From Octopus vulgaris (lineage: Eukaryota), in NCBI GenBank assembly GCA_951406725.2, contig OX597832.1, positions 21,824,001 to 21,888,000 on the forward strand: a stretch of 64,000 nt of DNA. Reading direction: 5' to 3'. The position numbers were made by a program, and so were the translations under genes. Under the pieces are notes generated by a model. That model was not told the DNA's origin. It did not search any database and saw only the letters and a list, made by a program, of their open reading frames with translations. Shown in pieces: positions 430 through 62,869 of the stretch (the stretch's first letter is position 1; each line of letters opens with the position of its first letter).

Positions 430-723
430 CTCTTTTACTTGTTTGACTGTGGCCATGCTGGAGTACCGCCTTTAGTCGAGCAAATCGACCCCAGGACTTA
501 TTCTTTAGAAGCCTAGTACTTATTCTATCGATCTCTTTTGCCGAACCGCTAAGTTACGGGGGACGTAAACACACCAGTATCGGTTGTCAAGCGATGTTGA
601 TGGGTGGGGGGGGGAGACAAACACAGACACACAAACACATATATATACATATACATATATACGACGGGTTTCTTTTCAGTTTCCGTCTACCAAATCCACT
701 CATAAGGCTTTGGGCGGCCCGAG
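430..723 (-). mobile_element. tRNA-derived CORE-type SINE, 3' part
   Basis: Matches the family seen in full at 59546-59952 (tttccgtctaccaaatccactcacaaggc motif). Confidence 0.85.
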
Positions 724-1092
724 CTCAGTCGCACTGCGTGGCACTTCGGGCAAGTGTCTTCTACTATAGCCACGGGACGACCAAAGCCTTGTGAGTGGAT
801 TTGGTAGACGGAAACTGAAAGAAGCCCGTCGAATACATACATATATATATATACCTGTATGTGTGTGTCTGTGTTTATCCCCACCACCACCGCCGCCGCC
901 GCTTGACAATCGCTGTTGGTTTGTTTATATCCCCGTAACTTAGCGGTTCGGTAAAACAGACCGAAAGAATAAATATCAGGCTTAAAAGAAAGAAGGAAAA
1001 AAAAAAAAGAATGGGGTCGATTCGTACAACTAAAATTTCGTCAAAGCGGTGCCCCAGCATGGCCGCAGTCTAATGACTGAAGCACGTAGAAG
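724..1092 (+). mobile_element. CORE-type SINE, 5'-truncated, inverted relative to the preceding copy
   Basis: gtggcacttcgggcaagtgtcttctactatagcc...gtgagtggatttggtagacggaaactgaaagaagccc. Confidence 0.85.
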
Positions 1093-7649: not shown

Positions 7650-7852
7650 TATATGAAACCGACAGCAAGGTACTCGTCTGCTGCATTCGTAACTTCTCGA
7701 CAGGAGAGTTCCACTATCCAATTTAACGCGCGCCGTGCGGCCTTCCTTTCTCTTTCGCCGGTCATAAACGGTGTAGATTCATACAAGGTAAAAGTCGATA
7801 TATTTATACACATATATATATATTTTATTTTGTATTGAACTCACTATCAACA
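7650..7852 (+). promoter_or_regulatory. Probable METTL3 promoter/5' UTR (CpG-enriched patch)
   Basis: Locally CpG-rich (aacgcgcgccgtgcggcc, tcgccggt) in an AT-rich background directly upstream of the ATG; position-based inference. Confidence 0.4.
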
Positions 7853-9511
7853 ATGTCTGATACGTGGAGTGATATCCAAGCTGCCAAAACGAAGCAGAGC
7901 AGCATGAGAGCCAAACTGTTAGAAAGGAAACGAAAAAGAGAAGGTATGGTTGCCGAAATGACAAATGCCGAGTCGTCCAGTTCGGGCTCTTTGTCGGCCG
8001 CTGGCATTGCTCAAAGTCAAACACCCCGTGTACCGTCGCCTACCCTTGCTCCGGATAGCTCTGTTAAAACCGAACACATTAAAGTCGATGCCGAAATCAA
8101 AAAGAAGCTATTGCTTGTGTTGTGTGATATAAACCTAGACATACCTTGTAATGCCACTCAGATCGCGGAACACACTTCTAAAATGTTAGGAAGAGAAGTG
8201 AAGCTGATCGTCATTGAAGATCTGTTACAGCAATTGTCCAGTCAGCAGTTACTTAGCATCGTTTCGAAAGAATCTAAAGATCAAAGCCACATCACCGTAA
8301 CCTCTCTCGATCTGAGTAAACTCAGCGCTGTTACGAACACTTCGGAGAATTCCTCAAACAAAAGAAAGAGAGAAAACGATGATCAAGACAGTTCGGAAAA
8401 TTCAGCGAAGCATCTCAAATCATCATCATCTTCATTGAACCAGCCCGATGACAGCATCGAGAGTTTACTTTCCATGCAATCAGCGAAAGAAAGAGAACAT
8501 AAGAAAGTACAAGAAGAAATCTTACAATTACTTAGCAAACCTACAGCGAAAGAACAATTTCTTGTTGAGAAGTTTAGTTCTCAGGGCGGTGCTCAGCTGC
8601 AAGAATTTTGCCAATATGGAACGAAAGACGAATGTATGAAAACCAACCAGGTATCCGAACCTTGTAAAAGACTTCATTTCAGAAAAATCATTCATAAACA
8701 CACAGATGAATCGCTTGGTGATTGCTCGTTTCTTAATACATGTTTTCATATGGATACATGCAAGTATGTTCACTACGAGATAGACTACCCCGAGAAGAAA
8801 AACCAACTGGCTTTATTGAAGAAAGAACTGTCCTTAAGTAAAAAGACTGGTATGAAGGATGGCACCGTGACCATGTTTCCGCCTCAGTGGGTCCAGTGTG
8901 ATTTGCGATATTTCGATATGTCCGTTCTGGGGAAATGTGCCGTAGTTATGGCTGATCCACCCTGGGATATTCACATGGAGTTACCTTATGGAACCATGAG
9001 TGACGATGAGATGAGAAAATTGGATGTACCTAATCTTCAAGACGACGGTTTCCTGTTTTTGTGGGTGACGGGCAGAGCTATGGAGTTGGGAAGAGAATGT
9101 CTGGAGCTGTGGGGTTACAAAAGAGTTGACGAATTGATCTGGGTGAAAACGAACCAACTTCAGAGAATCATAAGAACTGGACGTACCGGCCATTGGCTAA
9201 ACCACGGCAAAGAACACTGCCTTGTTGGAGTTAAAGGTGATCCAAAAGGCGTGAACAGGGGCCTCGACTGTGATGTGATCGTCGCAGAAGTTCGAGCCAC
9301 AAGTCATAAACCGGACGAAATCTATGGCATTATAGAACGACTTTCACCTGGAACTAGGAAAGTCGAACTGTTTGGACGACCGCACAATGTACAACCAAAC
9401 TGGATTACCTTAGGGAACCAAGTGGATGGAGTACGGCTTAAAGATCCCGATGTTGTGACAAGTTTTCAAAAACGCTACCCCAATGGAAACTGTATGGAAC
9501 CTCCGAAATAA
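7853..9511 (+). CDS. METTL3: N6-adenosine methyltransferase catalytic subunit METTL3 (MT-A70/IME4), 552 aa, single coding exon
   Basis: ATG at 7853 gives MSDTWSDIQA (metazoan METTL3 leader helix). Two CCCH zinc fingers (CQYGTKDEC..C..LH; CSFLNTCFHMDTCKYVH), catalytic DPPW at 8954-8965, conserved RTGRTGHWLNHGKEHCLVG and SHKPDEIY..IERLSPGTRK.ELFGR; no frameshifts. Confidence 0.98.
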   Translation: MSDTWSDIQAAKTKQSSMRAKLLERKRKREGMVAEMTNAESSSSGSLSAAGIAQSQTPRVPSPTLAPDSSVKTEHIKVDAEIKKKLLLVLCDINLDIPCNATQIAEHTSKMLGREVKLIVIEDLLQQLSSQQLLSIVSKESKDQSHITVTSLDLSKLSAVTNTSENSSNKRKRENDDQDSSENSAKHLKSSSSSLNQPDDSIESLLSMQSAKEREHKKVQEEILQLLSKPTAKEQFLVEKFSSQGGAQLQEFCQYGTKDECMKTNQVSEPCKRLHFRKIIHKHTDESLGDCSFLNTCFHMDTCKYVHYEIDYPEKKNQLALLKKELSLSKKTGMKDGTVTMFPPQWVQCDLRYFDMSVLGKCAVVMADPPWDIHMELPYGTMSDDEMRKLDVPNLQDDGFLFLWVTGRAMELGRECLELWGYKRVDELIWVKTNQLQRIIRTGRTGHWLNHGKEHCLVGVKGDPKGVNRGLDCDVIVAEVRATSHKPDEIYGIIERLSPGTRKVELFGRPHNVQPNWITLGNQVDGVRLKDPDVVTSFQKRYPNGNCMEPPK

Positions 9512-10330: not shown

Positions 10331-11027
10331 TTTTTGTAAGACTATGGCACAAATGGAGATTTAACTGCTGTTTTCAGCAGATAAAACGCCTGCGTGCGAT
10401 CAAGCTAACATGAGAACTTCTACGTGGACTTTCGATCTGCTAGAAATAGCAGCCTTAAATCACACCCTACTGTCTTAGAAAATAACTTACTAGATAATAC
10501 TGGTGTCAGTTTGAACCGCCTCCCCAAAAATGTTAGCCCTTGTGCATATAATATAGTAGAAAGTATTATTATTTTTATTGTTTGGGTACTACTTAAGAAG
10601 GGTGGTCCCGGTGCGCGCACTCGCGTACTCTCGCATCTGCGCTAGCTAGTCATGACTAGTTGATCCTACAACGACTACCTAGCAAAGTAAATAAAACACT
10701 AAATAATTTTTTTAAAACAAAGTAAATAAAACACAAAAACACAAAGTAAGGATCGACTAGTCACGACTAGCTAGCGCGAGTGCGCGCACCGGGACCACTC
10801 TTCTTAAGTAGTACCTATTGTTTGTCTAGCACACGGTTCAGTGTTGCTATTTTTTGTAAGACTATGGGCATAAATGGAGATTTAACTGCTGTTTTCAGCA
10901 GATAAAACGCCTGCCTGCGATCAAGCTAACGTGAGAACTTCTACGTGGACTTTCGATCTGCTAGAAATAGCAGCCTAGCTCCCTTAAATCATACCTTACT
11001 GTCTTAGAAAATAACTTGTTAGATAAT
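10331..11027 (+). repeat. ~170-bp direct duplication (10331-10500 / 10851-11027) flanking a MITE
   Basis: tttttgtaagactatgg..aaatggagatttaactgctg..ctagaaatagcagcc..gtcttagaaaataact occurs twice. Confidence 0.85.
10585..10815. mobile_element. Fold-back MITE, GGTACTAC termini, 9-bp TSD (Merlin/MULE-like)
   Basis: Long TIRs ggtactacttaagaagggtggtcccggtgcgcgcactcgcg. TSD tattgtttg at 10576-10584 and 10816-10824. Confidence 0.92.
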
Positions 11028-15374: not shown

Positions 15375-15417
15375 GACACCTGATGAAGGCTGGAGGGCAT
15401 GTCAGCCGAAACGTGTT
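15375..15417 (+). ncRNA. Degenerate minimal hammerhead motif in a PLE terminal-repeat remnant
   Basis: acac CTGATGA a ggctg..cagcc GAAA cg tgtt; cleavage triplet damaged. Confidence 0.6.
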
Positions 15418-17068: not shown

Positions 17069-17104
17069 GCTTCTGAAGAAGAGCGTCTGCTTGAAACGTC
17101 AAAC
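17069..17104 (+). ncRNA. Minimal hammerhead motif (CUGAAGA core, GUC site) in a PLE remnant ending in (TA)n
   Basis: gctt CTGAAGA a gagc gtct gctt GAAAC GTC aaac. Confidence 0.6.
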
Positions 17105-21244: not shown

Positions 21245-21254
21245 CACACATATA

Positions 21255-21540
21255 TATAAATATGGATAAGATCGTTAATTTAAAAATAAAATAACGATTT
21301 TATCAAGTGGCCAGCATGGAAAAAATAACCTTCAAAGGTAATAATTATCAAAATTATAAATTAGGGCAGCTACGAGATACCACCATGCTGAAAATAGCAA
21401 CCATGATCCAACTTTAAAATCACCTAAATTATAATTTATAATTTTAATAATTATTACCTTTGAAGGTTATTTTTTCCATGCAGACCACTTGATAAAATCG
21501 TTATTTTATTTTTAAATTAAGGATCTTATCCTTATTTATA
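21255..21540. repeat. Fold-back inverted repeat, ~109-bp arms, ~68-nt spacer
   Basis: Arms 21255-21363 and 21432-21540. Confidence 0.9.
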
Positions 21541-22025
21541 TAAATTTAAATTTATTTCGTCACTGTATTTACTGCGGTGATATTCTGACCATATTTCACG
21601 TGGAATGAAACGGCGGGCATTTTGAACTGGCCACAATGCAGACGTGTCTATGTTTGGGGGTGTGGCCCACCCTTACTCTGCGGACACTGAATCCACCCGC
21701 TTCCCACCCACAAGAAAACAAAAGAAAAAAGATAATGCAAACACACAGGATAACTTAGAAAATTCTAATCCCAATAACAAGGAAGAAATAGGTGAAATAT
21801 TGGAAAGGGTTGACAGCCGGGATAGGGCAGGGTTTGATGTATGGAATAATTTCTGAGGACCAAGAAAAAGAACTCAAGGAAAAATTATTGGAAAAATGTT
21901 ATAAATTGATTAAGCAAACAATTGAACCGAATAAAAGACATGAACTGGAAGAAATATATGGAAGGAAAGTAGAGGACTACGTGTTTTTCATACCGTTATA
22001 GGGAAGAAGGACAGGTAAGTGATTC

Positions 22026-22287
22026 GGTACTACTTGAGAACAGTGGTCCCGGTGCGCGCACTCGCGCTAGCTAGTCATGACTAGTCGATCCTTACTTTGT
22101 GTTTTTGTGTGTTATTTACTTTGTGTAAAAAATTATTGGCACTGTCATGCCTTTAGTTTACTTTGTGTAAAAAAATTATTTAGTTTTATTTACTTTGCTA
22201 GATACTCGTTTTAGGATCGACTAGTCACCACTAGCTAGCGCGACTACGCGAGTGCGCGCACCGGGACCACTGTTCTCAAGTAGTACC
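22026..22287. mobile_element. Second copy (inverted) of the GGTACTAC MITE, 8-bp imperfect TSD
   Basis: TIR ggtactacttgagaacagtggtcccggtgcgcgcactcgcg; flanks agtgattc / agtgatgc. Confidence 0.9.
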
Positions 22288-34090: not shown

Positions 34091-34373
34091 TCCATGGAAA
34101 GAAAAGCCTATGGAAAAGACCACGGTAACCTCAGGCAGGAGGAAATAAACACATGAGAGCAAAGTGCTCTCTCTATCTCTCTTTGATTTACTGGATCATG
34201 CTCAAAGTGGTTTCGTTACTCGCACGCTCCATCTTTGCTGCAAGCGATGAAACCACTTTGAGCATGATCCTGTAAATCAAAGAGAGAGAGAGAGAGCACT
34301 TTGCTCTCATGTGTTTATTCCCTCCCTCCCTGAGGTTACTGTGGCCTTTTCCACAGGCTTTTCTTTCCATGGA
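34091..34373. repeat. Fold-back inverted repeat, ~135-bp arms, 14-nt loop
   Basis: Arms 34091-34224 and 34239-34373. Confidence 0.93.
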
Positions 34374-35468
34374 TAAACCTAATCTTGCTTCTTACATTTT
34401 AAAAATTTCTTTTGTGATACACAATCTCTTTTGATTGAACTCAGAACGTAGCGACGGACGGAATACCTATTTCTTTACTGCACACAAGGGGCTACACACA
34501 GAGGGAACAAACAAGGACAGACAAACGGATTAAGTCGATTATATCGACCCTAGTGCGTACCTGGTACTTATTTAATCGACCCCGAAAGGATGAAAGGCAA
34601 AGTCGACCTCAGCGGAATTTGAACTCAGAATGTAGCGGCAGACAAAATACCGCTAAGCATTTCGCCCGGTGTGCTAATGTTTCTGCCAGCTCGCCACCAA
34701 AATCCTTCTGGTTGTATAAGGCACCCATGGCAGTGCCATGGAAAAATGCCCATGCAGTACCACATAAAAACACACATGCAGCATCATGTAAAAACATTCA
34801 TACTGTGTCATGTAAAAGCATTTCTGCTGCCTCATGTAAAAGCATCCATGTGGCATTACGTAAAAGTGCCTGTATGGTGCCACGTAAAAGCACCCAGCAC
34901 ACTCTGTAAGGTGGTTGGCATTAGGAAGGGCATCCAGCCATAGAAACCATACCAAATCTGATTGGAGTCTGGAGCAGCCCCACCAGCTTGCCAGCCCTGG
35001 TCAAACCATCCAAACTATGCCAGCATGGACAACGAATATTAAAGGATGATGATAGTATATCATCATCATTGTCATTGTTTAACATCTGGTCTTCCATACA
35101 TGGGTAGGATGGTCGACAGGAGCCAGCCAGGTAGAAAACTACCATAGGCTGCGAGCTGGCACAAATGTTAGCATGCTGGGCGAAATGCTTATTGGTATTT
35201 CGTCTGCCTTTACACTCTGAGTTCAAATTCCGCCGAGGTCGACTTTGCCTTTCATCCTTTCGGGGTCAATAAATTAAGTACCAGTTATGCACCGGGGTTG
35301 ATGTAATCAACTTAATCCCTATGTCTGTCCTTGTTTATCGCCTCTATGTTTAGCCCCTTGTGGGCAATAAAGAAATAAGAAAACTACCATTGGCTACTGT
35401 GTCCATTTTAGCAGAGTTTTTATGGCTGGATGCCCTTCCAAATACCAACCATTCTGCATATATGTATG

Positions 35469-35629
35469 TATGTATTAGAAGAAATGAGGTACTCAGAAAT
35501 CAGGATGGTTTTATAGTTACAGATATTTATTAGTATGTTACATGTTATTATAACATGTAAAATACTAATAAATATCTGTAAATATAAAACCATCCACATT
35601 TCTGAGTACCTCATTTCTTCTAATATATA
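35469..35629. repeat. Near-perfect palindrome, ~78-bp arms
   Basis: tattagaagaaatgaggtactcagaaat...atttctgagtacctcatttcttctaata. Confidence 0.93.
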
Positions 35630-35756
35630 ATACCTGTACATCATCTCCAAACCTTCTAATGTATGTATTTGTCAGTAGTTCATAAATCTGAAGGGAAGCA
35701 CACAATAAATATTAGAACAGTGATACTTATAAGGTTGTAAGGTTATGGCCAGTCAG

Positions 35757-38012: not shown

Positions 38013-38312
38013 TAAGATGAAATGTTTTATGTTTGCTGCCCACACACATCTTTGCCAGTATATATGCAGTAAAGCTTTACTATAACATTGTAAAATTATT
38101 GACTACTATTTCCAGTAAACATTGGAGCCTTGTAACATTCCATATATATATATAACGATGATGATGATGATATATATATATATGGAATGTTACAAGGCTC
38201 CAATGTTTACTGGAAATAGCAGTCAATAATTTTACAATGTTATAGTAAAGCTTCACTGCATATATACTGGCAAAAACGTGTGTGGGCAGTGAACATAAAA
38301 CATTTCATCTTA
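38013..38312. repeat. Tail-to-tail inverted repeat, ~140-bp arms around a (TA)n-(GAT)n centre
   Basis: taagatgaaatgttttatg...cataaaacatttcatctta. Confidence 0.93.
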
Positions 38313-41123: not shown

Positions 41124-42794
41124 GTTTTATAGAAATATATATATATGTTATGATATATATATATCACATATATGATATTATATATATATATATATATTAT
41201 GTTTTATAAATATATATATTATGTTTTATAAATATATATGTTATGATATACATATATATCACATATATGATATATATATTATGTTTTATAGATATATATT
41301 ATGATATATATATATATCACATATATGATATATATATATATAATATACTTATATATTATTAGATATACAGCTTTTAGTATAGTAAATGTATATACATGAT
41401 TATATAAATATATTATGCACACACACACATATATATTACATGTATATATCATAAATGATATTATATATACTTATATTGCATATAAATTACATTACATATA
41501 CAACCACATTGAATCCTTTTTTTTAATAAGAACATGACCACCAGTAGTAACTGGCGATCCCTATTTTCAATTGCACAGCTATTTGGTTGATCAGACATCA
41601 GTCTGGACCTTGGACAATGTAGGACTGAAACGGTTGAAGTAAATTTTTTTTAGTAAAAAAATGACTTTTTTTTTACTTTGAAAAAAAAAAAAAAATGAGA
41701 GAGAAAGAGAGAGAGAGAGAGAGATAAAGCAAAAAAAAAAATGTAGAAGAGGTAAAAAAAAAAAAAGACAAGTAATTAGTTAGTTAGGAAGACAATGTAG
41801 ATAATAAATAGTGATTTCTTACTCAGGCACAAGGCCACAAATTATCATAGCAGTATGGAGGCAGAGATGTTGGAGTTGTGGTTTCAAATGTTGGGGGTGA
41901 ATGAAGATAGTTATGGCATAGAAGACGTTTCGTAATTAAAAAAAATTTTTTGTCTTTTTTTCCTCTCAGTTTGGTTTTTCACACTTTTTTGTTTTTTTTA
42001 ATATTTAAAGGTCGTTAGCGTGATATCATATTATTATGAAATGAATTATGTTTTAATTTTTAACCGGGGATTAGATATAAGAAATGAGGATGATGGAGGT
42101 GGTGGTGGTGGTGGAGGGAGAGTGGGTAAAAAAAAAATTACAAAAAGAAAAAAAAAAATGAATGGTGGACTCTGCTCACCGGGAGCCAGCCCCTTCATGT
42201 ACAATGTTCACCATGAGATATTAACGGGGAAAAAAAAAGAGAGAAAAAAAAACTAATAAAGATATAATTGAAAAACGAAATTAAAACCAAGTGAAATGAA
42301 TATTCATAAAAGAAAAACAGACAAAAAAGCGAAAATTAAAAAATGCAAAATAAAAATAAAACAGAAAAAAAAAAAACTCGAAGAACTAAATCAATAGGAT
42401 TCAAAAAAAGGACAATTTACAAAAAATTCTTAATTTCATTTCTAAGAATTTTATAACATTATTTCTTCAGATCTAGTAAATATATAAATTTAGATTTCAT
42501 ACACACACACACACACACACATATTTATAATCCCAGGAATACGCCCTATGATCTTAAAATATTTATAAATTCCGTCCAAGGGACTGTTATTATTTTTAGT
42601 ATATTTATCCTACATTATATCGGCACAGCTTGGTGTGACCCCCAAGAAACTGGTATTGCCAAATGGCATCATTAGGCTGTGGTCAACACAATAAAACAGG
42701 AGCTTTCATATACATACTGAAAACGTTTCCTGTAAACAAACTTAGAGGATATATATACATACATACATACATATATATTATATATATATATCTA

Positions 42795-43035
42795 TATACT
42801 GTTGTGTCTGGGGAGAGTCATTCTCTTTTAGTGCCTTATTATTTAACACACTCACCGGAAAAAATTCCACTTATTTCTTATTTTTATTTTCTAAAATTTT
42901 CGTTGCGTCTTGCAACTTTTTCAATAGTGACTATTTTAGAAAATAAAAATAAGAAATAAGTGGAAATTTTACCGGTTAGTGTGTTAAATGATAAGGCACT
43001 CAAAGACAATGATTCTCCCCAGACACAACAGAATA
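42795..43035. repeat. Fold-back inverted repeat, ~100-bp arms, with a hammerhead in the loop
   Basis: ctgttgtgtctggggaga...tctccccagacacaacag. Confidence 0.93.
42891..42927 (-). ncRNA. Minimal hammerhead motif, U3-A8 core variant
   Basis: Minus strand: cta TTGAAAA a gttgc aagac gcaac GAA AATT T tag. Confidence 0.65.
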
Positions 43036-43088
43036 TGCTTCAACACACGAACTCATATAAAGAATCTTGCAAACCAAATCCAAAAACG

Positions 43089-43173
<85 letters not shown>

Positions 43174-43224
43174 CACACACATACATATATATATGTATGT
43201 GTGTGTGCATATATACTTTTTAAA

Positions 43225-43260
<36 letters not shown>

Positions 43261-43884
43261 CTCACTCCTACACATATATATGTAATATGTGTACATACAT
43301 ACATACATATAAATTTATACACACTGATTTACAACCTTGAAAGAAAATTGTGAAACTTGAAAGGATGGTATCTTTGTATGTCTCAAACACAAAATGAAAA
43401 TAACTAGATTCTACATTTTACTGTAAAATTTATCCTAAGATGTTTATAGAACTGGTCTTCTTAATCTTTGAGTGGAAGCTGTCATACCTTAAATACATCC
43501 TTGCATACATATATACACACATACATATATATATGTGCATAATACATGAGCATGTAATTCTGGCTATTATGTTGATGATATATGATACTACCTCTTAGAA
43601 ATATATATTTTGGTATAGTTCATAATACATAGTATATATGTAAATTATATATTATACATAGTATATATATATGATTTAGTATATGTACTATATAGATTCT
43701 AGCACAACTCATCACATTTCTCAAAGTTCCTAAATTATTATAACACTAACTATACAGTTTAGTATTGAAATAATAGAGCATATATGTCTATATATCATCA
43801 TCATCATCATCATCGTTTATATATATATATATATATATATAAATGTAGAAGGATGAAAAGAGACACACGAGTTGATATATATGG

Positions 43885-44040
43885 GAAAAAAAAGTCAAGC
43901 TAGAAAATGCTAAAATAATTTTATAAAAAAAATTTCAGTACCGGTTTCAGTCATTGAATTGAAAAAGTCTCAATGACTGAAACCGGTACTGAAATGGTTT
44001 TATAAAATTATTTTAGCATTTCCTATCTTGACTTTTTTTC
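43885..44040. repeat. Fold-back inverted repeat, ~72-bp arms
   Basis: gaaaaaaaagtcaag..atttcagtaccggtttcagtcattga / tcaatgactgaaaccggtactgaaat..cttgacttttttc. Confidence 0.92.
43959..43991 (+). ncRNA. Minimal hammerhead motif, U3-A8 variant, 5' strand of stem I lost at the fold-back junction
   Basis: TTGAAAA agtc tcaat gact GAA ACCGGT A ctg. Confidence 0.6.
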
Positions 44041-45742: not shown

Positions 45743-46274
45743 CATATTTACATAAAAAGAGAGATATCTATAGCTAAAGAGTGGTAGATAGAGGGAGACG
45801 TAAATAGACAGATAGATAGATAGAAAGAGGAGGTGAGAAAGGGGAGAGAGGGAGAAAGAGAGAGAGATTTCAAATACACCACTTGCCTAGATTTGTGGTG
45901 TCCACTTCACTTTGTCTCACCTCATTAGGATTCTTCCATATCGATATAATATCTACCTATTTAAAAGCAAACCGCCACCAAGCCAAAACAGAATCATAGA
46001 TAGATAGGTTAGTAGAGAGATAGGTAAATTAGGTGTCAGTCAGCATGTGTAAAGGTGTATGTATAACTGCATGTGGTGTGATGCGGATATTTTTATGAAT
46101 GGTGGGTATTTAACGAATATAGTTAATATAGAAAAGACAGGAATGTACACTGGGATGTTGTGGTGGGGGGTGGTCTTGATACCAGGGTGGGAGGTTTATT
46201 GTAGTAGTGGTAAAGATTCTTTTGTTTTCTGTATTCTTTTTCTTCTTTATATAATTATTTTTTAATGACAGTAG

Positions 46275-49200
46275 CACTAATAATAATAATAATAATCCTT
46301 TCTACTATAGGCACAAGGCCTGGTGTTTGTGGGGAGGCAGTAGAATCGGTCACATCGACCCCAGTACTTTGGTACTTAATTTATCAATCCCCCAAAAGGA
46401 TGAAAGGCAAAGCCAACCTTGGTGGAATTTGAACTCAGAATGTAACGATGGGTGAAATACCGCTAAGCATATCATCCAGTGTGCTAATGATTCTGCCAAC
46501 TGGCCACCTAATAATAATAATAATAATTTTTTCTAGTGGAGGCACAAGGTCTCAAATTTGTAGAGTGGGGACTAGTCATCTAAATCGACCCCAGCGTTCC
46601 ACTGGTACTTAATTTATCGACCCCGAAAGGATCAAAAGCAAAGTCAACCTCAGCAGAATTTGAACTCGGAACGTAAAGACATGATATACTGATAAGCATT
46701 TCACCTGGCGTGGTAACGTTTTTACCAGCTCGCCGCCTTTAACAAGAATATTCTTTTCTACTCTAGGCGCAAGGCCCAAAATTTTTGGGGTGGGGGGCCA
46801 GTTGATTAGATCGACTCCAGTACACAACTTATTTTATCAACCCCAAAAGGATGAAAGGCAAAGTCAATGTTGGTGGAATTTGAACTCAAAAAATATAGCG
46901 ATGGGTTAAATATCGGTAAGCATTTCATCCAATGCACTACCGATTCTGCCAGCTTGCCGCCTTAATAATAATAATAATAATAATCCTTTTTGCAATAGGC
47001 ACAAGGCCTGAAATTTTGGGGAAGGGGGTAAGTCGATTACATTGACTCCGGTACATAACTGGTACTTATTTTATTGACCCTGAAATCATGAAAGGTGAAG
47101 TGGATCTTGGCGGAATTTGAACTTAAAACATCAAGATGGACAAAATGCCGTTAATTATTTTGCTTGGCATGGTAACGATCCAACCAGCTTGTTATCTTCA
47201 TAATAATAATAATAATAACAATAATGATAATGATTTCAAATTTTGGCTCAAGGCCTGCAATTTCGTGGGACGGGGAAAGTCAATTATATCAACCCCAGTG
47301 CATAACTGGTACTTTTTTTATCGACCCCCGAAAGGATGAAAGGCAAAGTTGACCCTGACAGAATTTGAACACTGAATGTGTAAACAGGCGAAGTGTCGCT
47401 AAGCAATTCACCTGGCATGCTAACAGTTCTACCAGCTCACCACTTAATAATAATAACAATAATAATGATAATAATAATAACAGGCAAAAGCCATGCATTC
47501 TAGGGCTTAGGAACAGAGAATTAAATTGTTCCCAGCCCAGCACTTGACTGTCAACTTTGGAATGGTAAAAAAGCAAAGTTAACTCTGGCAAGACATGAAC
47601 TATGATCACAACCAAATACAGCCAGGTATGGACTTATCCATACACTGACCATCAAAAGTAATAATAATGATAATTATTATTTAAAATTTTCGCCACAAGG
47701 GCAGCTTAGGGGAGGTGGTGGTGAGTTGATTACATTGACCCCTCCCCATCCGAGTTTAACTGGTACTTATTTAATTGACCCCAAAAGGATGAAAGGCAAA
47801 GTCGACCTCAGCAGAATTTGAACTCAGAATGTAGTGGCAGATGAAATACCTATTTCTTTACTACCCACAAGGGGCTAAACACAGAGAGGACAAACAAAGA
47901 GAGACAAACGGATTAAGTCGATTATATCGACCCCAGTGCATAACTGGTACTTAATTTATCGACCCCGAAAGGATGAGAGGCAAAGTCGACCTCGGCGGAA
48001 TTTGAACTCAGAACATAGTGGCAGATGAAATACCTAATTCTTTACAACCAACAAGGGGCTAAACACAGAGAGGACAAACAAGGACAGACAAACGGATTAA
48101 GTCGATTTCATCGACCCCAGTGCGTAACTGGTACTTATTTAATCAACCCCGAAAGGATGAAAGGCAAAGTCGACCTCGGCGGAATTTGAACTCAGAACGT
48201 AGCAGCAGATGAAATACCACTAAGCATTTCACCCATTGTGCTAATGTTTCTGCCAGCTCGCCACCTTAATAATAATAATAATAATAATAATTCTTTCTAC
48301 TGGAAGCATAGAGCCTGAAATTTGGGGGAAGGGATTAATTCAATTACATCGTCCCAAGTGCGTAACTGGTACTTATTTAATCAACCCTAAAAGGATGAAA
48401 GGCAAAGTCAACCTTGATGGAATTTGAACTCAGAACATAGTGACAGGCGAAATACCGGTAAGCATTTTGACCAACATGCTAATGATTCTGTAATAATAAT
48501 GGTTTCGAATTTTGGCACAAGGCCAGCAATTATTTTTTAGGGGGAGGAGCAACATCGACTACAACAACCCCAGTGCTCAACTGTTACTTGTTTAGTCAAC
48601 TCTCAAAGAATGAAAGGCTAAGTGGACTTTGGCAGAGTTTGAACTCAGAAGGTGAAGATAGACAAAACACTTTGCCTGGCGCAGTAACAACTCTGTCAGT
48701 TCATCACCTTAATAACAATAATAATAATAATAATAATCCTTTCTACTAAAGGCACAAGACCTGATACTTATGGAAGGGGGGATAGTTGATTATATCGACC
48801 CCCAGTATTCAACTGGTACTCATTTTTTTGACCCTGAAATAATAAAAGTCAAAGTCGACCTCGGTGGAATTTGAACTCAGGACGTAGTGGCAGGTGAAAT
48901 AGTGCTAGGCATTTTGCCCAGCGTGCCAACGACTCTGCCAGCTCACCGCCTTATGCCTTAATAATAGTAATGGTTTCAAATTTTGGCACTAGGCCAGAAA
49001 TTTTAAGGGACAGGTAAATTGATTACATTGACCCCAGTACTCAAATGGTACTTATTTTATCGACCCTCAAGGATGAAAGGCAAAGTCGACCTCGGCATAA
49101 TTTGAACTCAGAATGTGAAAATGGCTGAAATGCTGCCAAGCATTTTGAATATCTCATTAAGAATTTGGCCAGCTTGCTTCCTTAATAGTAACTTCAAATT

Positions 49201-49592
49201 ATGGTAGAGGACCTGAAATTTTAGGGGACGTGGATAATCAGTTACGTAAACATCAGTGTTTGACTTTTCCATCAATCCCAAAAGGATCAAAGGTAAAGCT
49301 GACCTCGGTGGAATTTGAACTCAGATAGTGAAGACAGACAAAATGCCAATAAGTATTTTACCTGGTGTGCTAACGATTCTGTCAACATGCTACTTTGATA
49401 ATAGATACCAATAATCCTTTCTACTAAGGGCACAAGACCTGAAATTTTGTTGGGAGGGGGCTAATTGAATATATTGACCCTTGTCTTTCACTGGTACTTA
49501 CTTTGGCAGAATTTGAACTTAGAATGTCAAGACAGACGAAATGCCACTAAGCATTCTGCCCAACATGCTAATGATTGTGCCAGCTCGTCACC

Positions 49593-49628
<36 letters not shown>

Positions 49629-49860
49629 TATAATCCTTTCTACTATAGGCACAAGGCCTGGATTTTTGTGGGGAGTGGGGACAACTGATCACCTCAACCC
49701 CAGTACTTGACTGGTACTTAATTTATCAACCCCGAAAGGATGAAAGGCAAAGTCGACCTCAGCGGAATTTGAACTCAGAACATAGTGACAGACAAAATAC
49801 CGCTTACTATTTTAGCCTGGCATGCTAACGATTCTGCTAGCTCATTACCTTGATGATAAC

Positions 49861-49897
<37 letters not shown>

Positions 49898-50055
49898 GTT
49901 TCAGATTTTGCCAGAAGGACAGCAATTTGGGGGTAGGGGAGGAGTTGATTACATCGACCCTGGTGCGTAACTGGTACTTATTTTATCGACCCTGAAAGGA
50001 TGAAAGGTAAAGTCGACCTCGTCGGAATTTGAACTCAGAACGTAGCGATGGGCAA
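46275..50055 (-). mobile_element. Array of ~16-17 co-oriented Nin/Deu-type SINEs, mostly separated by (TAA)n
   Basis: The ggatgaaaggcaaagtcgacc..gaatttgaactcagaa core recurs about every 190-260 bp. Confidence 0.92.
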
Positions 50056-50617
50056 AAAACAGAGGTGGAAGGCCACAAATTTTAGTAAGGGGGGGGGGAG
50101 GGCGAGCAACTGATTAAAATTGGCTACCCATGTAATTGATACTGGACTGATGAAAAACAAAATCAAACCCCAGCAGGCCATTTTTTTTTTTTTTTTTTTT
50201 TTTAAATCAGAAATGTCGAGAAGGATGGAACTAAATCCTGAAAAAAAAAAAAAAATTCATCATGCCAAGAGTTCTACCCCACTCCACTGCCTTTCTTTTT
50301 AAAGTGATGGTAATAACAATAACAACAACAATGATAACAATATAACGATAATAATAATAATAATAATAATTATAATAATGATAATAATGATAATTTTATT
50401 CTTGAAATTGAATAAGGAGGTTTCATGTAAAAAAAAAAAAAAAACCCACAAGTTTAAATACATAATTTTCTTTTTTTAGCAAATATATAAATTTCTTAAA
50501 GATAAACAGAGGTGGGGAGCTATTTATTGTCATTAATGATGATGATAATGATGATTGTTATTGTTATCTGTATGTTTTGCATAGCAACTACTGTTGCTAA
50601 GATGTGACTAGTATGTG

Positions 50618-59952: not shown

Positions 59953-60717
59953 AAATATAAACAGGGAAAAAAGAAATAAAAAAAAAGAAAGCAACTACAA
60001 CAACAAAACAAATAACAAAAAAAAACAACAACCCCATCCCCTCCATACATGATGAAGCACAACCGTAACCGAAACAGCTGTTCATTTGAAGTGAACCAAA
60101 TCACTAGTCTTTCCTGATTCCAAGTGGTGAGGTGGGTTTTGTTCCATTAGAAAATAGGATAATAGAGAATGTAGCAGCAGCAGCCAGTAATTTCTTTTTT
60201 GAGAAATGAGGGAATCAGCTAATTAATGTTTAGGAATTAATTGGGTTTTCAAATGCAACTCTAAAACAGCTTTTCTTAACTGGGAGAGATGGAAGTGTAA
60301 TAACGATGTTATAATTAACTAACGAAGCAGGTTTTTAAGAGAGCCGTGAGGATGTATGATGATGGAGAGATGGGGTGGGGAGAGCGAGGAGAGAGAGGAT
60401 GAGGGAGAGAAGGAGGGAGAAAGAGAAAAAAGAAACACAGAGATATTTATATGGAATTTTCTACGCCGTCATTCAATGTCCATTTTTCCATTCTCGCATG
60501 GGTCAGAATGGGTGGTCAGACAGAATTTGACAAAGTAGATTTTTTTATGGCTAAAATGCCCTTCCTGTTGCTAACCCTCAACAAACCTTTGGTTAGTCTG
60601 GTGTCTATAGTAGAAGATACATGCTCAAGGTACTGTTCGGTGGGACTGAACCTGAGGCTTCCTGATTGAGAAGTAACCATCTTAACCACACCTACCAACC
60701 TACCTATATATATATAT

Positions 60718-60851
60718 ATCTGTAAATATAATATGTGACAATTATTCAGTAGCCATGATAAAACTCCGAGTTTAGGATGTCTGCTCCGACATCAGAAACT
60801 TAGAGTTTTATCATGGTTACTGAATAATTGTCAGATATTATATTCACAGAT
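60718..60851. repeat. Fold-back inverted repeat, ~63-bp arms, 6-nt loop, next to (TA)n
   Basis: atctgtaaatataatatgtgacaattattcagta...tactgaataattgtcagatattatattcacagat. Confidence 0.9.
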
Positions 60852-62869
60852 AAATTCCTCTATTTACATAATATCAAGGTCTCTTTAATTCTTTTGTTGT
60901 CTTACCGTTTCTATCAATATATATATATATATATATATATCACCTTGTGAGTGGATTTGGTAGATGGAAACTGAAAGAAGCCTATCATATATATATATAT
61001 ATATATATATGTATATGTATGTATGTGTTGTATATGCTTGTGTGTCTGTGTTTGTCCCTCCAGAATCACTTGACAACCGATGCTGGTGTGTTTACATCCC
61101 CATAGCTCAGCAGTTTGGCAAGAGACACCGATAGAATAAGTACTGGACTTACAAAGAATAAGTTCTGGGGATTGATTTGCTCAACTAAAGGCAGTGCCCC
61201 AGCATGGCCACAGTCAAATGACTGAAACAAATAAAAGAATGAAAGAACAGAAGAATAAAATTGCTGTTTGGCATTAATGCTGCTTTCATCGTTAGGGTGC
61301 CCCTATAATGGGGGCACACGTACCTTGGTTATATATAATGCTTTGTTGAATAAATGCACTCGTTTCAGTGATAATTATTTGTTTATAATGTGTCCTAATT
61401 ACTATGAGATACCCTGTACATTAATGTAGGTTTTGAAGATATGTGTATGTCTATACTTATATAATATTTATTCATTTTTTGTTTTTATTTTGTGATCTAG
61501 ATATGTTTTATATAGGAGGTGAATATTCTATGTTGTTTATTAAGGGAAGAAATCTGGTATGACTTCTTTATTTGTCAAAAAACCATGCGATCATTCACAG
61601 AAAACCTTCCCCTACTTCCTTCTCCTCACCTGTAGGAGCCATGATTACATTTTTATTTTTCTCATAGCTAGGCTTTCTAATATGAATATGTGATAATTCT
61701 TTTTTGGAATTGGTTTTTTTAAGCACATAAGTGCTACAGATAAGGCTTGAAAGTTTTGGGGAGGGGAAATGGTAAATCACATCGACCCCAGTACACAACT
61801 GGTACTTAATTTATCAATCCCAAAAGGATATATGGCAAAGCTGACTTAGGTGGAATTTGAACTCAGAACATGAAGACTGACAAAATACTGCTAAGCATTT
61901 CACCCGACATGCTAAAGGTTCAGCCAGCCTGCTGCCTTATAAATGCTACAAATAATAGCATGAGAGACCCTTTGGGTTAGAAAAAGATTAAGGCTGCCCC
62001 TGTGGGACTTAAGGTTCTCCTTGTTTTGACATACCATGACAGCTGTAAACAACTGTCACTGTCATACAAGCAGTGTCGTTCATTTCTGCAATGCTGAGGG
62101 AACATATCTGGCCATGTGAAGCATTATATTACCTATTTCTTTACTACCCACAAGGGGCTAAACACAGAGAGGACAAACAAGGACAGACCTCAGTGCGTAA
62201 CTGGTACTTAATTTATCGACCCCGAAAGGATGAAAGGCAAAGTGGACCTTGGTGGAATTTGAACTCAGAATGCAACGGCAGACGAAATACGGCTAAGCAA
62301 TTCGCCCGGCGTGCTAACGATTCTGCCAGCTCGCCGCCTTGATTATATTACCATGTGTGTAAACAGGTAAGGGTCGGCGAGAGGAAGAGCATCCAGCCAT
62401 AGAAAAAAATCTGCCTCAGTAAATTTCGCCAAACCCATGCAAGCACGGAACACTGGACAGTAAAACAACGACGACGATGATGACGACAATGACGATGGTG
62501 ATGTATACGTCTTCATATACAATGCCGAGCGGACACAAAGCCAAATTAAATACTGGCATGATTCAAAGTCTGACCGTATGGGCAGACGGTATGAGGGTGG
62601 TGTGTGTGCGTGGTGGTGGCGGGGGTGGTGGCGATGGAATGTGACTTGACAAAGCAAGGCATTCAGTGCTGTGCCACCACAGCATAGCTGTGGCCACTTG
62701 GCTGCTGTCTTTCTACAATGAAAAACCTCTTGCAACAAATTACAACAATAACCACTGCTACTACTACTACAACTACTACTACTGCTGCTGCTACTACTAC
62801 TACTGCTATTTCTTCTTACCGAGTGCTGTGTGGAGATGTCGGGTGATCTTTCCAATCAATATCACATGC

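What the first reader, a model, noticed from the sequence alone, without database searches (positions are those of the whole stretch)
42795..44040. Fold-back hairpins whose turning point is a hammerhead ribozyme
Seen: in 42795-43035 the loop holds a complete U3-A8 hammerhead (42891-42927, -) and the duplicated arm starts almost at its predicted cleavage site. In 43885-44040 the turn falls inside a second, unrelated hammerhead. Both lie beside (TA)n. Established: PLE insertions often carry inverted partial terminal repeats. Inference: ribozyme-defined RNA ends or ribozyme structure set where reverse transcription folds back, producing non-coding hairpin elements. This could be an undescribed class of small ribozyme-bearing mobile hairpins.
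Basis: partly seen in the sequence, partly recalled or inferred. Interest (0 to 1): 0.8.

Follow-up and report, generated by a model that had tools for sequence, protein, structure and literature searches.

The report
Head-to-head stubs of Penelope-type repeats
Two hairpins in a mollusc genome are each made of two short copies of an abundant repeat joined head to head; each repeat begins with a hammerhead motif predicted to be a self-cutting RNA, and the hairpins are likely ordinary one-off by-products of Penelope-type jumping-gene insertion, not a new class of mobile hairpin.

Summary
Both hairpins and both U3-A8 minimal hammerhead motifs are there (3 descriptor hits in the window, 0.07 expected). 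The interpretation mostly fails. Each arm belongs to an abundant repeat: 10,872 and 1,004 contigs laid in one run each. In hairpin 1 each arm holds something the other lacks, the hammerhead core on the left and a family 'tail' on the right, which one fold-back cannot give. Of the 10 inversion joints shown for family 1 (48 joints in all), 7 have one end at the first bases of the hammerhead, about 35 nt upstream of the predicted cut; their partners scatter over 60 nt, none lies at the cut, and each joint has single-locus depth. The hammerhead sits at the turn likely because it is the 5' end of the unit. Inverted 5'-truncated copy, junction palindrome, one-sided tail, (TA)n targets and U3-A8 cores are all published for Penelope-like elements. 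Likely mechanism: two cDNAs primed at both nicks, joined head to head. No coding parent was found, so pLTR versus retrozyme stays open. This scan reported the same kind of element many times elsewhere in this genome.

The parts
42799..42928 (-). Family 1, copy A: from the family's common 5' end through the hammerhead to the short 3' end (no tail)
   Evidence: (10,872, 10,432, 7,087 and 765 contigs laid in four runs; loose ends behind 42928 and before 42800-42802)
42891..42927 (-). Minimal type I hammerhead motif, U3-A8 core, 3-bp stem I, 5-bp stem II with G10.1-C11.1, AAUU palindrome; predicted cut 42894|42893
   Evidence: stem I pairing probability 0 in the whole hairpin RNA, about 0.18 in copy A alone
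42923..42935 (.). 13-bp palindrome at the head-to-head junction, centre 42929
   Evidence: sequence
42929..43031 (+). Family 1, copy B: four letters like the family's 5' end, then the arm; lacks 28 nt (core and stem II) between two ATT repeats
43032..43090 (+). One-sided tail of copy B, AC-rich; its first 30 nt are family sequence
   Evidence: 27 of 30 letters match the loose-end consensus before 42800 in run X15 (compared by eye); the remaining 29 nt are assigned by position only
43009..43092 (+). ATG-started open frame of 28 codons running from the arm through the tail; possible start of a PLE ORF
   Evidence: no relative found, so unproven
42750..42798 (.). TA-rich microsatellite, left flank and likely target
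43091..43143 (.). (TA)n, right flank of hairpin 1
43959..44040 (+). Family 2, sense copy, starting at U3 of the hammerhead and ending at (TA)n
   Evidence: (1,004, 1,448, 934 and 25 contigs laid)
43959..43991 (+). Second U3-A8 hammerhead motif (A10.1-U11.1, ACCGGU palindrome, H17 43988); 5' strand of stem I lost in this copy
43885..43957 (-). Family 2, inverted copy, starting in loop II; junction shows a 5-nt tandem duplication (ATTGA ATTGA)
43842..43884 (-). 43-nt one-sided extension between the inverted copy and (TA)n; likely the tail of family 2
   Evidence: position by analogy with hairpin 1; one contig of X6 fits its first letters; not otherwise tested

Best explanation
Each hairpin is two short copies of an abundant hammerhead-headed repeat joined head to head, likely made in one insertion by a Penelope-like (PLE) reverse transcriptase-endonuclease that nicked both strands of a (TA)n target and likely primed one cDNA at each nick. 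Shown: the arms are repeat-family sequence; in hairpin 1 one copy has the hammerhead but no tail and the other the tail but no core; joints of family 1 recur at the first bases of stem I and scatter on the other side. Inferred: the two cDNAs start at the two reverse-transcription start sites that bound the tail, run toward the RNA's 5' end through an uncut (or re-ligated) scissile bond, and are joined there by short self-primed or microhomology patches (13-bp palindrome and ATT repeat in hairpin 1, ATTGA duplication in hairpin 2). The RNA's 5' end, likely a transcription start, lies at the first base of the hammerhead, so whatever is left unpaired at the junction is hammerhead. The hairpins are dead ends: both ribozymes are predicted to be unable to fold in a hairpin transcript.
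For: Family size and spread over organisms A-D. Tail is family sequence, on one side only. 7 of the 10 opposite-strand joints shown have an end at 42927-42930; partners at 42837, 42839, 42849, 42851, 42876 (two rows), 42896. Joint depths 32-92 against 30-100 for single contigs of the DNA runs X2 and X7 and 14-55 in X15, and four of the ten rows recur in two or three organisms, as old single insertions would. The window's own junction letters are covered at depth 50-59 in three organisms (only 12 letters lie beyond the junction, so this is cover, not formal bridging). Stem I probability 0 in the hairpin. In this window 6 of 8 long fold-backs have no descriptor hit and two hammerhead-like motifs lie outside fold-backs. 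Published matches: inverted shorter pLTR, junction palindromes, one-sided 31-bp tail, ORF start inside pLTR and tail (PMC3846280); (TA)n bias and inverted 5'-truncated copy (PMC8557442); both strands cut and extended, two RT start sites bounding the tail, AC-rich start, uncut RNA as main template in vitro (PMC11167929); U3-A8 and opposite-strand pairs of minimal hammerheads (PMC4209133).
Against: No RT or GIY-YIG sequence was tied to either family (one search found no match in the Naiad/Hydra supplement). Only 15 of 48 joints and 24 of 552 loose-end rows were shown for family 1, and none for family 2 (no joints). The stretch laid ends family sequence at 42928, which favours joints and loose ends there, so the pile-up and its P value (3e-6) are overstated; two rows of table 5c and a shared loose-end consensus (agreement 0.43-0.51) show that some copies go on upstream. 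The tails (43-59 nt) are longer than the published 30-40 bp. The tail of hairpin 2 is barely tested. No target-site duplication was found. Hairpin 1 and one other locus do break within 4 nt of the predicted cut.
Confidence: 0.7

Rival explanations
1. One cDNA runs to the RNA's 5' end, primes on itself and copies back (self-priming, as proposed for Adineta Penelope); the 28-nt gap in hairpin 1 is a later deletion that relieved a perfect palindrome.
For: 13-bp junction palindrome and a gap bounded by ATT repeats; the TTGA of the core is complementary to TCAA of loop II at the turn of hairpin 2; arms share the same letter at the 5 family-variable sites where they agree with each other and the window has the commoner letter (weak); self-priming and microhomology deletions are described in PMC3846280.
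Against: Needs a second event in hairpin 1, and again in hairpin 2 if its extension is a tail, both times removing hammerhead from the tailed arm; partner ends up to 90 nt from the 5' end are direct joints.
Confidence: 0.15
2. One reading: ribozyme cutting or folding sets the RNA end or the turning point.
For: Copy B starts 1-4 nt from the predicted cut; a second locus breaks at 42896 and a third at 42889; the turn of hairpin 2 uses complementarity inside the ribozyme.
Against: 0 of 20 joint ends at the cut, 2 of 20 within 5 nt (chance P 0.58); no fall in depth 5' of the cut and no unrelated loose ends there among the rows shown; an RT stall would be expected at the 3' foot of the fold, not past its 5' end (inference); hammerhead mutants did not change insertion by the anole element in vitro (PMC11167929).
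Confidence: 0.07
3. The hairpins are themselves mobile units (MITE-like or an RNA hairpin retroposon).
For: Long inverted arms and TA-rich flanks; one joint (42896-42928) has depth 87 in X2, perhaps two copies.
Against: All joints shown have about single-locus depth and differ in position; ends are unequal (tail); no duplication found. The window's real MITE-like pair (10585-10815, 22026-22287) has constant terminal repeats, unlike these.
Confidence: 0.03
4. The inversions arose in chromosomal DNA after insertion (replication or repair fold-backs near microsatellites), with no link to reverse transcription.
For: The window has 8 long fold-backs, 6 without a hammerhead hit, one centred on microsatellite.
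Against: The inverted part stops at the element's own 3' ends and does not run into flank; copy B has a tail that copy A cannot have supplied.
Confidence: 0.05

Closest known systems
Insertion units of endonuclease-positive Penelope-like elements with inverted pLTR and tail (Pen2a_Av of Adineta vaga, PMC3846280; overview in PMC8557442)
   Same: Head-to-head copies, the inverted one shorter at its 5' end, palindrome at the junction, tail on one end only, an ATG frame running from repeat into tail, AT-rich or (TA)n target
   Different: No ORF body and no second direct pLTR here; no target duplication seen; tails 43-59 nt against 30-40 bp
Minimal hammerheads of metazoan PLEs, U3-A8 variant of Schistosoma mansoni Cercyon (PMC4209133)
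   Same: Type I, U3-A8 core, short stem I, palindromic positions around loop 3; extra base between 9 and 10.1 and G10.1-C11.1 in motif 1; the paper also reports pairs on opposite strands 100-700 bp apart; acceptor-like sequence at the 5' strand of stem I in family 2, as with the D. virilis intron
   Different: Stem II 4-5 bp against 7-8; motif 2 has A10.1-U11.1; motif 1 has U at position 17; activity untested
Poseidon of Anolis carolinensis (PMC11167929)
   Same: Hammerhead about 100 nt 5' of an AC-rich region with two ends that bound a tail; copies read through the cut site
   Different: Mechanism shown there in vitro, only inferred here; clade of the driving enzyme unknown
Animal non-LTR retrozymes (PMC7229834; bioRxiv 10.64898/2026.07.22.740005)
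   Same: Non-coding, type I hammerhead, low GC, very many dispersed copies, likely moved by PLE proteins
   Different: No tandem monomers at these loci; unit length and circular RNA not shown

Membership tests
Minimal type I hammerhead of metazoan PLEs | Core boxes with a 3-8 pair, GAAA and UH | tested here: met
   U3-A8 in both motifs
Minimal type I hammerhead of metazoan PLEs | Stem II closed by G10.1-C11.1 with an extra base after position 9 | tested here: inconclusive
   met in motif 1; motif 2 has A10.1-U11.1
Minimal type I hammerhead of metazoan PLEs | Palindromic stem III/loop 3 for dimer folding | tested here: met
   AAUU and ACCGGU
Minimal type I hammerhead of metazoan PLEs | Stem I | tested here: inconclusive
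   3 bp in motif 1; 0 bp in the window's motif 2 but 3 bp (CAG/CUG) in its family
Minimal type I hammerhead of metazoan PLEs | Self-cleavage | not testable with these tools
   contigs cannot show RNA ends; folding predicts no stem I in the hairpin
EN+ Penelope-like element insertion | Inverted 5'-truncated copy next to the 5' end | tested here: met
EN+ Penelope-like element insertion | Tail on one end only | tested here: met
   hairpin 1; only a hint for hairpin 2
EN+ Penelope-like element insertion | AT-rich or microsatellite target | tested here: met
   a duplication could not be seen
EN+ Penelope-like element insertion | ORF with RT and GIY-YIG endonuclease in the family | tested here: inconclusive
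   none among 118 of 262 window frames scanned; the 35-40 aa frame found no relative, a weak test; no genome held
Non-LTR retrozyme | Tandem monomers of 150-400 nt, each with a hammerhead | tested here: inconclusive
   not at these loci; one table 5c row joins 42927 to 42805 over 31 letters, which may be a partial tandem
Non-LTR retrozyme | Circular and linear monomer RNA | not testable with these tools
   no listed holder on record as RNA; contigs only
MITE (TIR DNA transposon) | Constant ends, repeated as a whole unit, target duplication | tested here: not met
   joints differ and are at single-locus depth; unequal ends; no duplication

The most novel reading that the evidence does not exclude
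These families are protein-free RNAs of 130-190 nt that start at the first base of an uncut hammerhead and are copied two at a time by a dimeric Penelope enzyme, one cDNA per target strand. Tens of thousands of genomic copies would then be a natural record of the unsolved late steps of PLE transposition: arm asymmetry would prove twin priming, and a minor peak of ends at the scissile bond would be the first in-vivo trace of cleavage by a minimal PLE hammerhead.
Probability: 0.2. Interest if true: 0.55.

Novelty: new member of a known kind. Interest (0 to 1): 0.2.

Why it matters
As a class of element it is ordinary. Its use is as data: how PLEs make tandem and inverted insertions, and whether their minimal hammerheads cut in vivo, are stated open questions (PMC8557442, PMC11167929). 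A family with thousands of short head-to-head copies allows both to be tested by counting ends. For annotation, such hairpins can be mistaken for MITEs or microRNA precursors: Rfam gave sub-threshold microRNA matches over hairpin 1.

Tried and rejected
No whole genome is held, so no genome-wide breakpoint histogram. Rfam: no hammerhead family. Neither hairpin has another copy in the window. Exact-pattern scans found nothing: family 1 in metagenome and viral contigs, family 2 in metagenome contigs. The ATG frame at 43009 found no relative by word search among longer proteins, phmmer over 1.84 billion proteins, Pfam or the protein atlas (best 0.78). Pfam on 118 of 262 window frames: only MT-A70 above cut-off. 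The supplement of PMC8557442 holds octopus Naiads but no match to three short motifs of these families beyond one chance hit inside an unrelated sequence. No RNA holder listed; run X6 is only guessed to be RNA, so its 765 and 25 contigs are not used as evidence of expression. No target-site duplication of 6-20 nt. A spliced reading of family 1 (donor-like site at 42855) was dropped because the acceptor-like AG is not in the family's loose-end consensus. Summed depths were not used as copy numbers. Look-ups of earlier findings by sequence and by nearby place gave nothing relevant. Literature searches for an already described hairpin class; none returned a paper on hammerhead hairpins in octopus, but most subscription papers are not held, and supplements of PMC4209133 and of the bioRxiv preprint were not seen.

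Full report
Setting. The window is AT-rich animal DNA full of microsatellites and short repeats. Its one gene with a Pfam hit above cut-off is an intronless METTL3, whose best named relatives are molluscan at 70% or less; earlier notes on this genome call it octopus (not tested further). No whole genome is held, so family-level evidence comes from contigs of public runs.

Observation. Hairpin 1 has 104-nt arms, 92% complementary, 35 nt apart. Its minus strand holds a minimal type I hammerhead motif at 42927-42891 with a U3-A8 core, an extra A before a 5-bp stem II, an AAUU palindrome, a 3-bp stem I and a predicted cut at 42894|42893. Hairpin 2 (43885-44040) holds a second U3-A8 core from 43959 with GAAA-CCGG-UA, but no stem I. 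The descriptor gives 3 hits in the window against 0.067 in 60 shuffles (written after seeing the motifs). Rfam has no matching hammerhead model.

Family 1. Laying four runs on 42795-42940 at 80% gave 10,872, 10,432, 7,087 and 765 contigs in organisms A, B, C and a run guessed to be RNA. The arm is therefore a very abundant repeat. Loose ends before 42800-42802 have a consensus that matches the 59-nt stretch to the right of the right arm (27 of 30 letters in X15, by eye): that stretch is part of the element and is present on one side only. Loose ends behind 42928 are the largest group shown (223, 235, 168, 22 contigs) with low agreement (0.43-0.51): many copies seem to end there, while some share an upstream sequence. 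Of 48 joints, 15 are shown, 10 of them between opposite strands. Seven of the ten have one end at 42927-42930; their partners lie at 42837, 42839, 42849, 42851, 42876 (twice) and 42896. The other three rows are 42839-42889, 42858-42921 and 42871-42904. None of the 20 ends is at the predicted cut and 2 lie within 5 nt, which is what a uniform spread gives (P 0.58). Depth rises rather than falls 5' of the cut. The joints have depths of 32-92, like single contigs, and four rows recur in two or three organisms. Caveats: the stretch laid leaves family sequence at 42928, which favours that position, so the P value of 3e-6 for the pile-up is too strong; the rows shown are the best supported, not a random sample.

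The junction of hairpin 1. The true centre is 42929, in a 13-bp palindrome (42923-42935). The right copy reads as G plus the family's first letters, then jumps 28 nt between two ATT repeats into the arm. The first loose letter behind 42928 is the complement of that G in all four runs, so the four 'loop' letters 42929-42932 look templated. They may be the 5' end of the right copy with an internal gap, or a snap-back patch made from the left copy's end. Either way the left copy has the core and no tail, the right copy the tail and no core. A single cDNA that folds back can only copy what it already holds, so one arm should be a subset of the other; it is not, unless a later deletion is added. 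The retained part of the right copy begins 1-4 nt 5' of the cut; with an untemplated base a cut-derived end is possible at this locus.

Family 2. Laying four runs on 43956-44038 gave 1,004, 1,448, 934 and 25 contigs (organisms A, B, D). Loose ends before 43959 (69, 84, 67, 4) agree at 0.62-0.70 on a pyrimidine-rich stretch ending in CAG, which supplies the missing 3-bp stem I. So the family has the whole motif and this copy has lost its 5' strand. No joints were listed, so breakpoints were not tested for this family. The junction has a 5-nt tandem duplication, at a spot where the core's TTGA is complementary to loop II. A 43-nt extension lies outside the inverted copy, in the same relative place as the tail of hairpin 1; only one contig hints that it is family sequence.

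Can the ribozymes act here? In an RNA that holds all of hairpin 1 the stem I pairs have probability 0, against about 0.18 in the left copy alone; in hairpin 2 even stem II is lost. Both are predicted inactive as hairpins.

Controls in the window. Eight long fold-backs were found; only these two hit the descriptor. Two other hammerhead-like motifs, at 17073 and 15380, are not in fold-backs. Fold-back and hammerhead are therefore separable.

Mechanism. Most likely a PLE protein nicks both strands of a (TA)n target and primes two cDNAs from the two start sites that bound the tail. Both run toward the 5' end of the RNA through an uncut or re-ligated cut site. One often reaches the 5' end at the first base of the hammerhead, the other stops at a variable place, and they are joined head to head. 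Shown: family membership, tail, asymmetry, joint positions, single-locus depth. Inferred: the enzyme, twin priming, the transcription start, the joining chemistry. The two-ends reading was also put forward in earlier notes on this genome, which are leads and not independent support.

What is known. PMC4209133 (parts 1-2 of 4 read) reports minimal hammerheads in PLE repeats, the U3-A8 variant (about 1,300 hits in S. mansoni), pairs on opposite strands, and an intron ending at the 5' strand of helix I in D. virilis. PMC3846280 (10 passages) describes Pen2a_Av with a shorter inverted pLTR, a one-sided 31-bp tail, the ORF start inside pLTR and tail, and junction palindromes read as self-priming. 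PMC8557442 (12 passages; two supplement searches) gives the inverted 5'-truncated copy, tail and (TA)n bias as general PLE traits and lists octopus Naiads. PMC11167929 (parts 1-2 of 4) shows both strands cut and extended, two RT start sites bounding the tail, and no need for hammerhead cutting in vitro. PMC7229834 (12 of 19 passages) and bioRxiv 10.64898/2026.07.22.740005 (part 1 of 5) describe retrozymes and their PLE origin. PMC6431247 (9 passages) added nothing. It works like a PLE insertion; membership of an autonomous PLE family is not shown, since no RT or endonuclease was tied to either family. My guess for family 1 is about even between pLTR stub (the ATG frame running into the tail fits, but could be chance) and a non-coding retrozyme-like unit.

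Verdict. Real features, known kind. New member of a known kind; interest 0.2. The scan has reported this kind of element many times on other pieces of the same genome.

Noticed in passing
window 7727-9511 (+): Intronless METTL3 (MT-A70) ORF in an intron-rich animal genome; possibly a retrocopy or a gene that lost its introns.
   Followed up: partly
window 17073-17100 (+) and 15380-15411 (+): Two further minimal hammerhead-like motifs with C3-G8 cores, not in fold-backs; the second has G at position 17 and follows a SINE-like fragment.
   Followed up: partly
window 501-990, 21250-21545, 34091-34373, 35464-35633, 38013-38312, 60714-60855: Six more long fold-backs without a descriptor hit; one is built from the window's commonest SINE-like repeat, one has a microsatellite at its centre.
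   Followed up: partly
window 35572-35587 and 60716-60731: Two otherwise unlike fold-backs share an exact 16-letter word.
   Followed up: no
family 2, upstream of 43959: The family's stem I 5' strand is the end of a pyrimidine-rich stretch closing in CAG, like a splice acceptor; splicing would change the ribozyme, as reported for D. virilis Penelope.
   Followed up: no
window 42855-42850 (-): Consensus-like splice donor 40 nt 3' of the predicted cut in family 1; changed in the right copy.
   Followed up: partly
window 10585-10815 and 22026-22287: Two copies of a MITE-like element with constant terminal inverted repeats.
   Followed up: no
window 46272-50060: Degenerate tandem array of roughly 230-nt SINE-like units.
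   Followed up: no
family 1, loose ends behind 42858: Runs X7 and X15 hold a subfamily with a different sequence at 42859-42864; X7 also shows a copy with G as the extra base after position 9.
   Followed up: no
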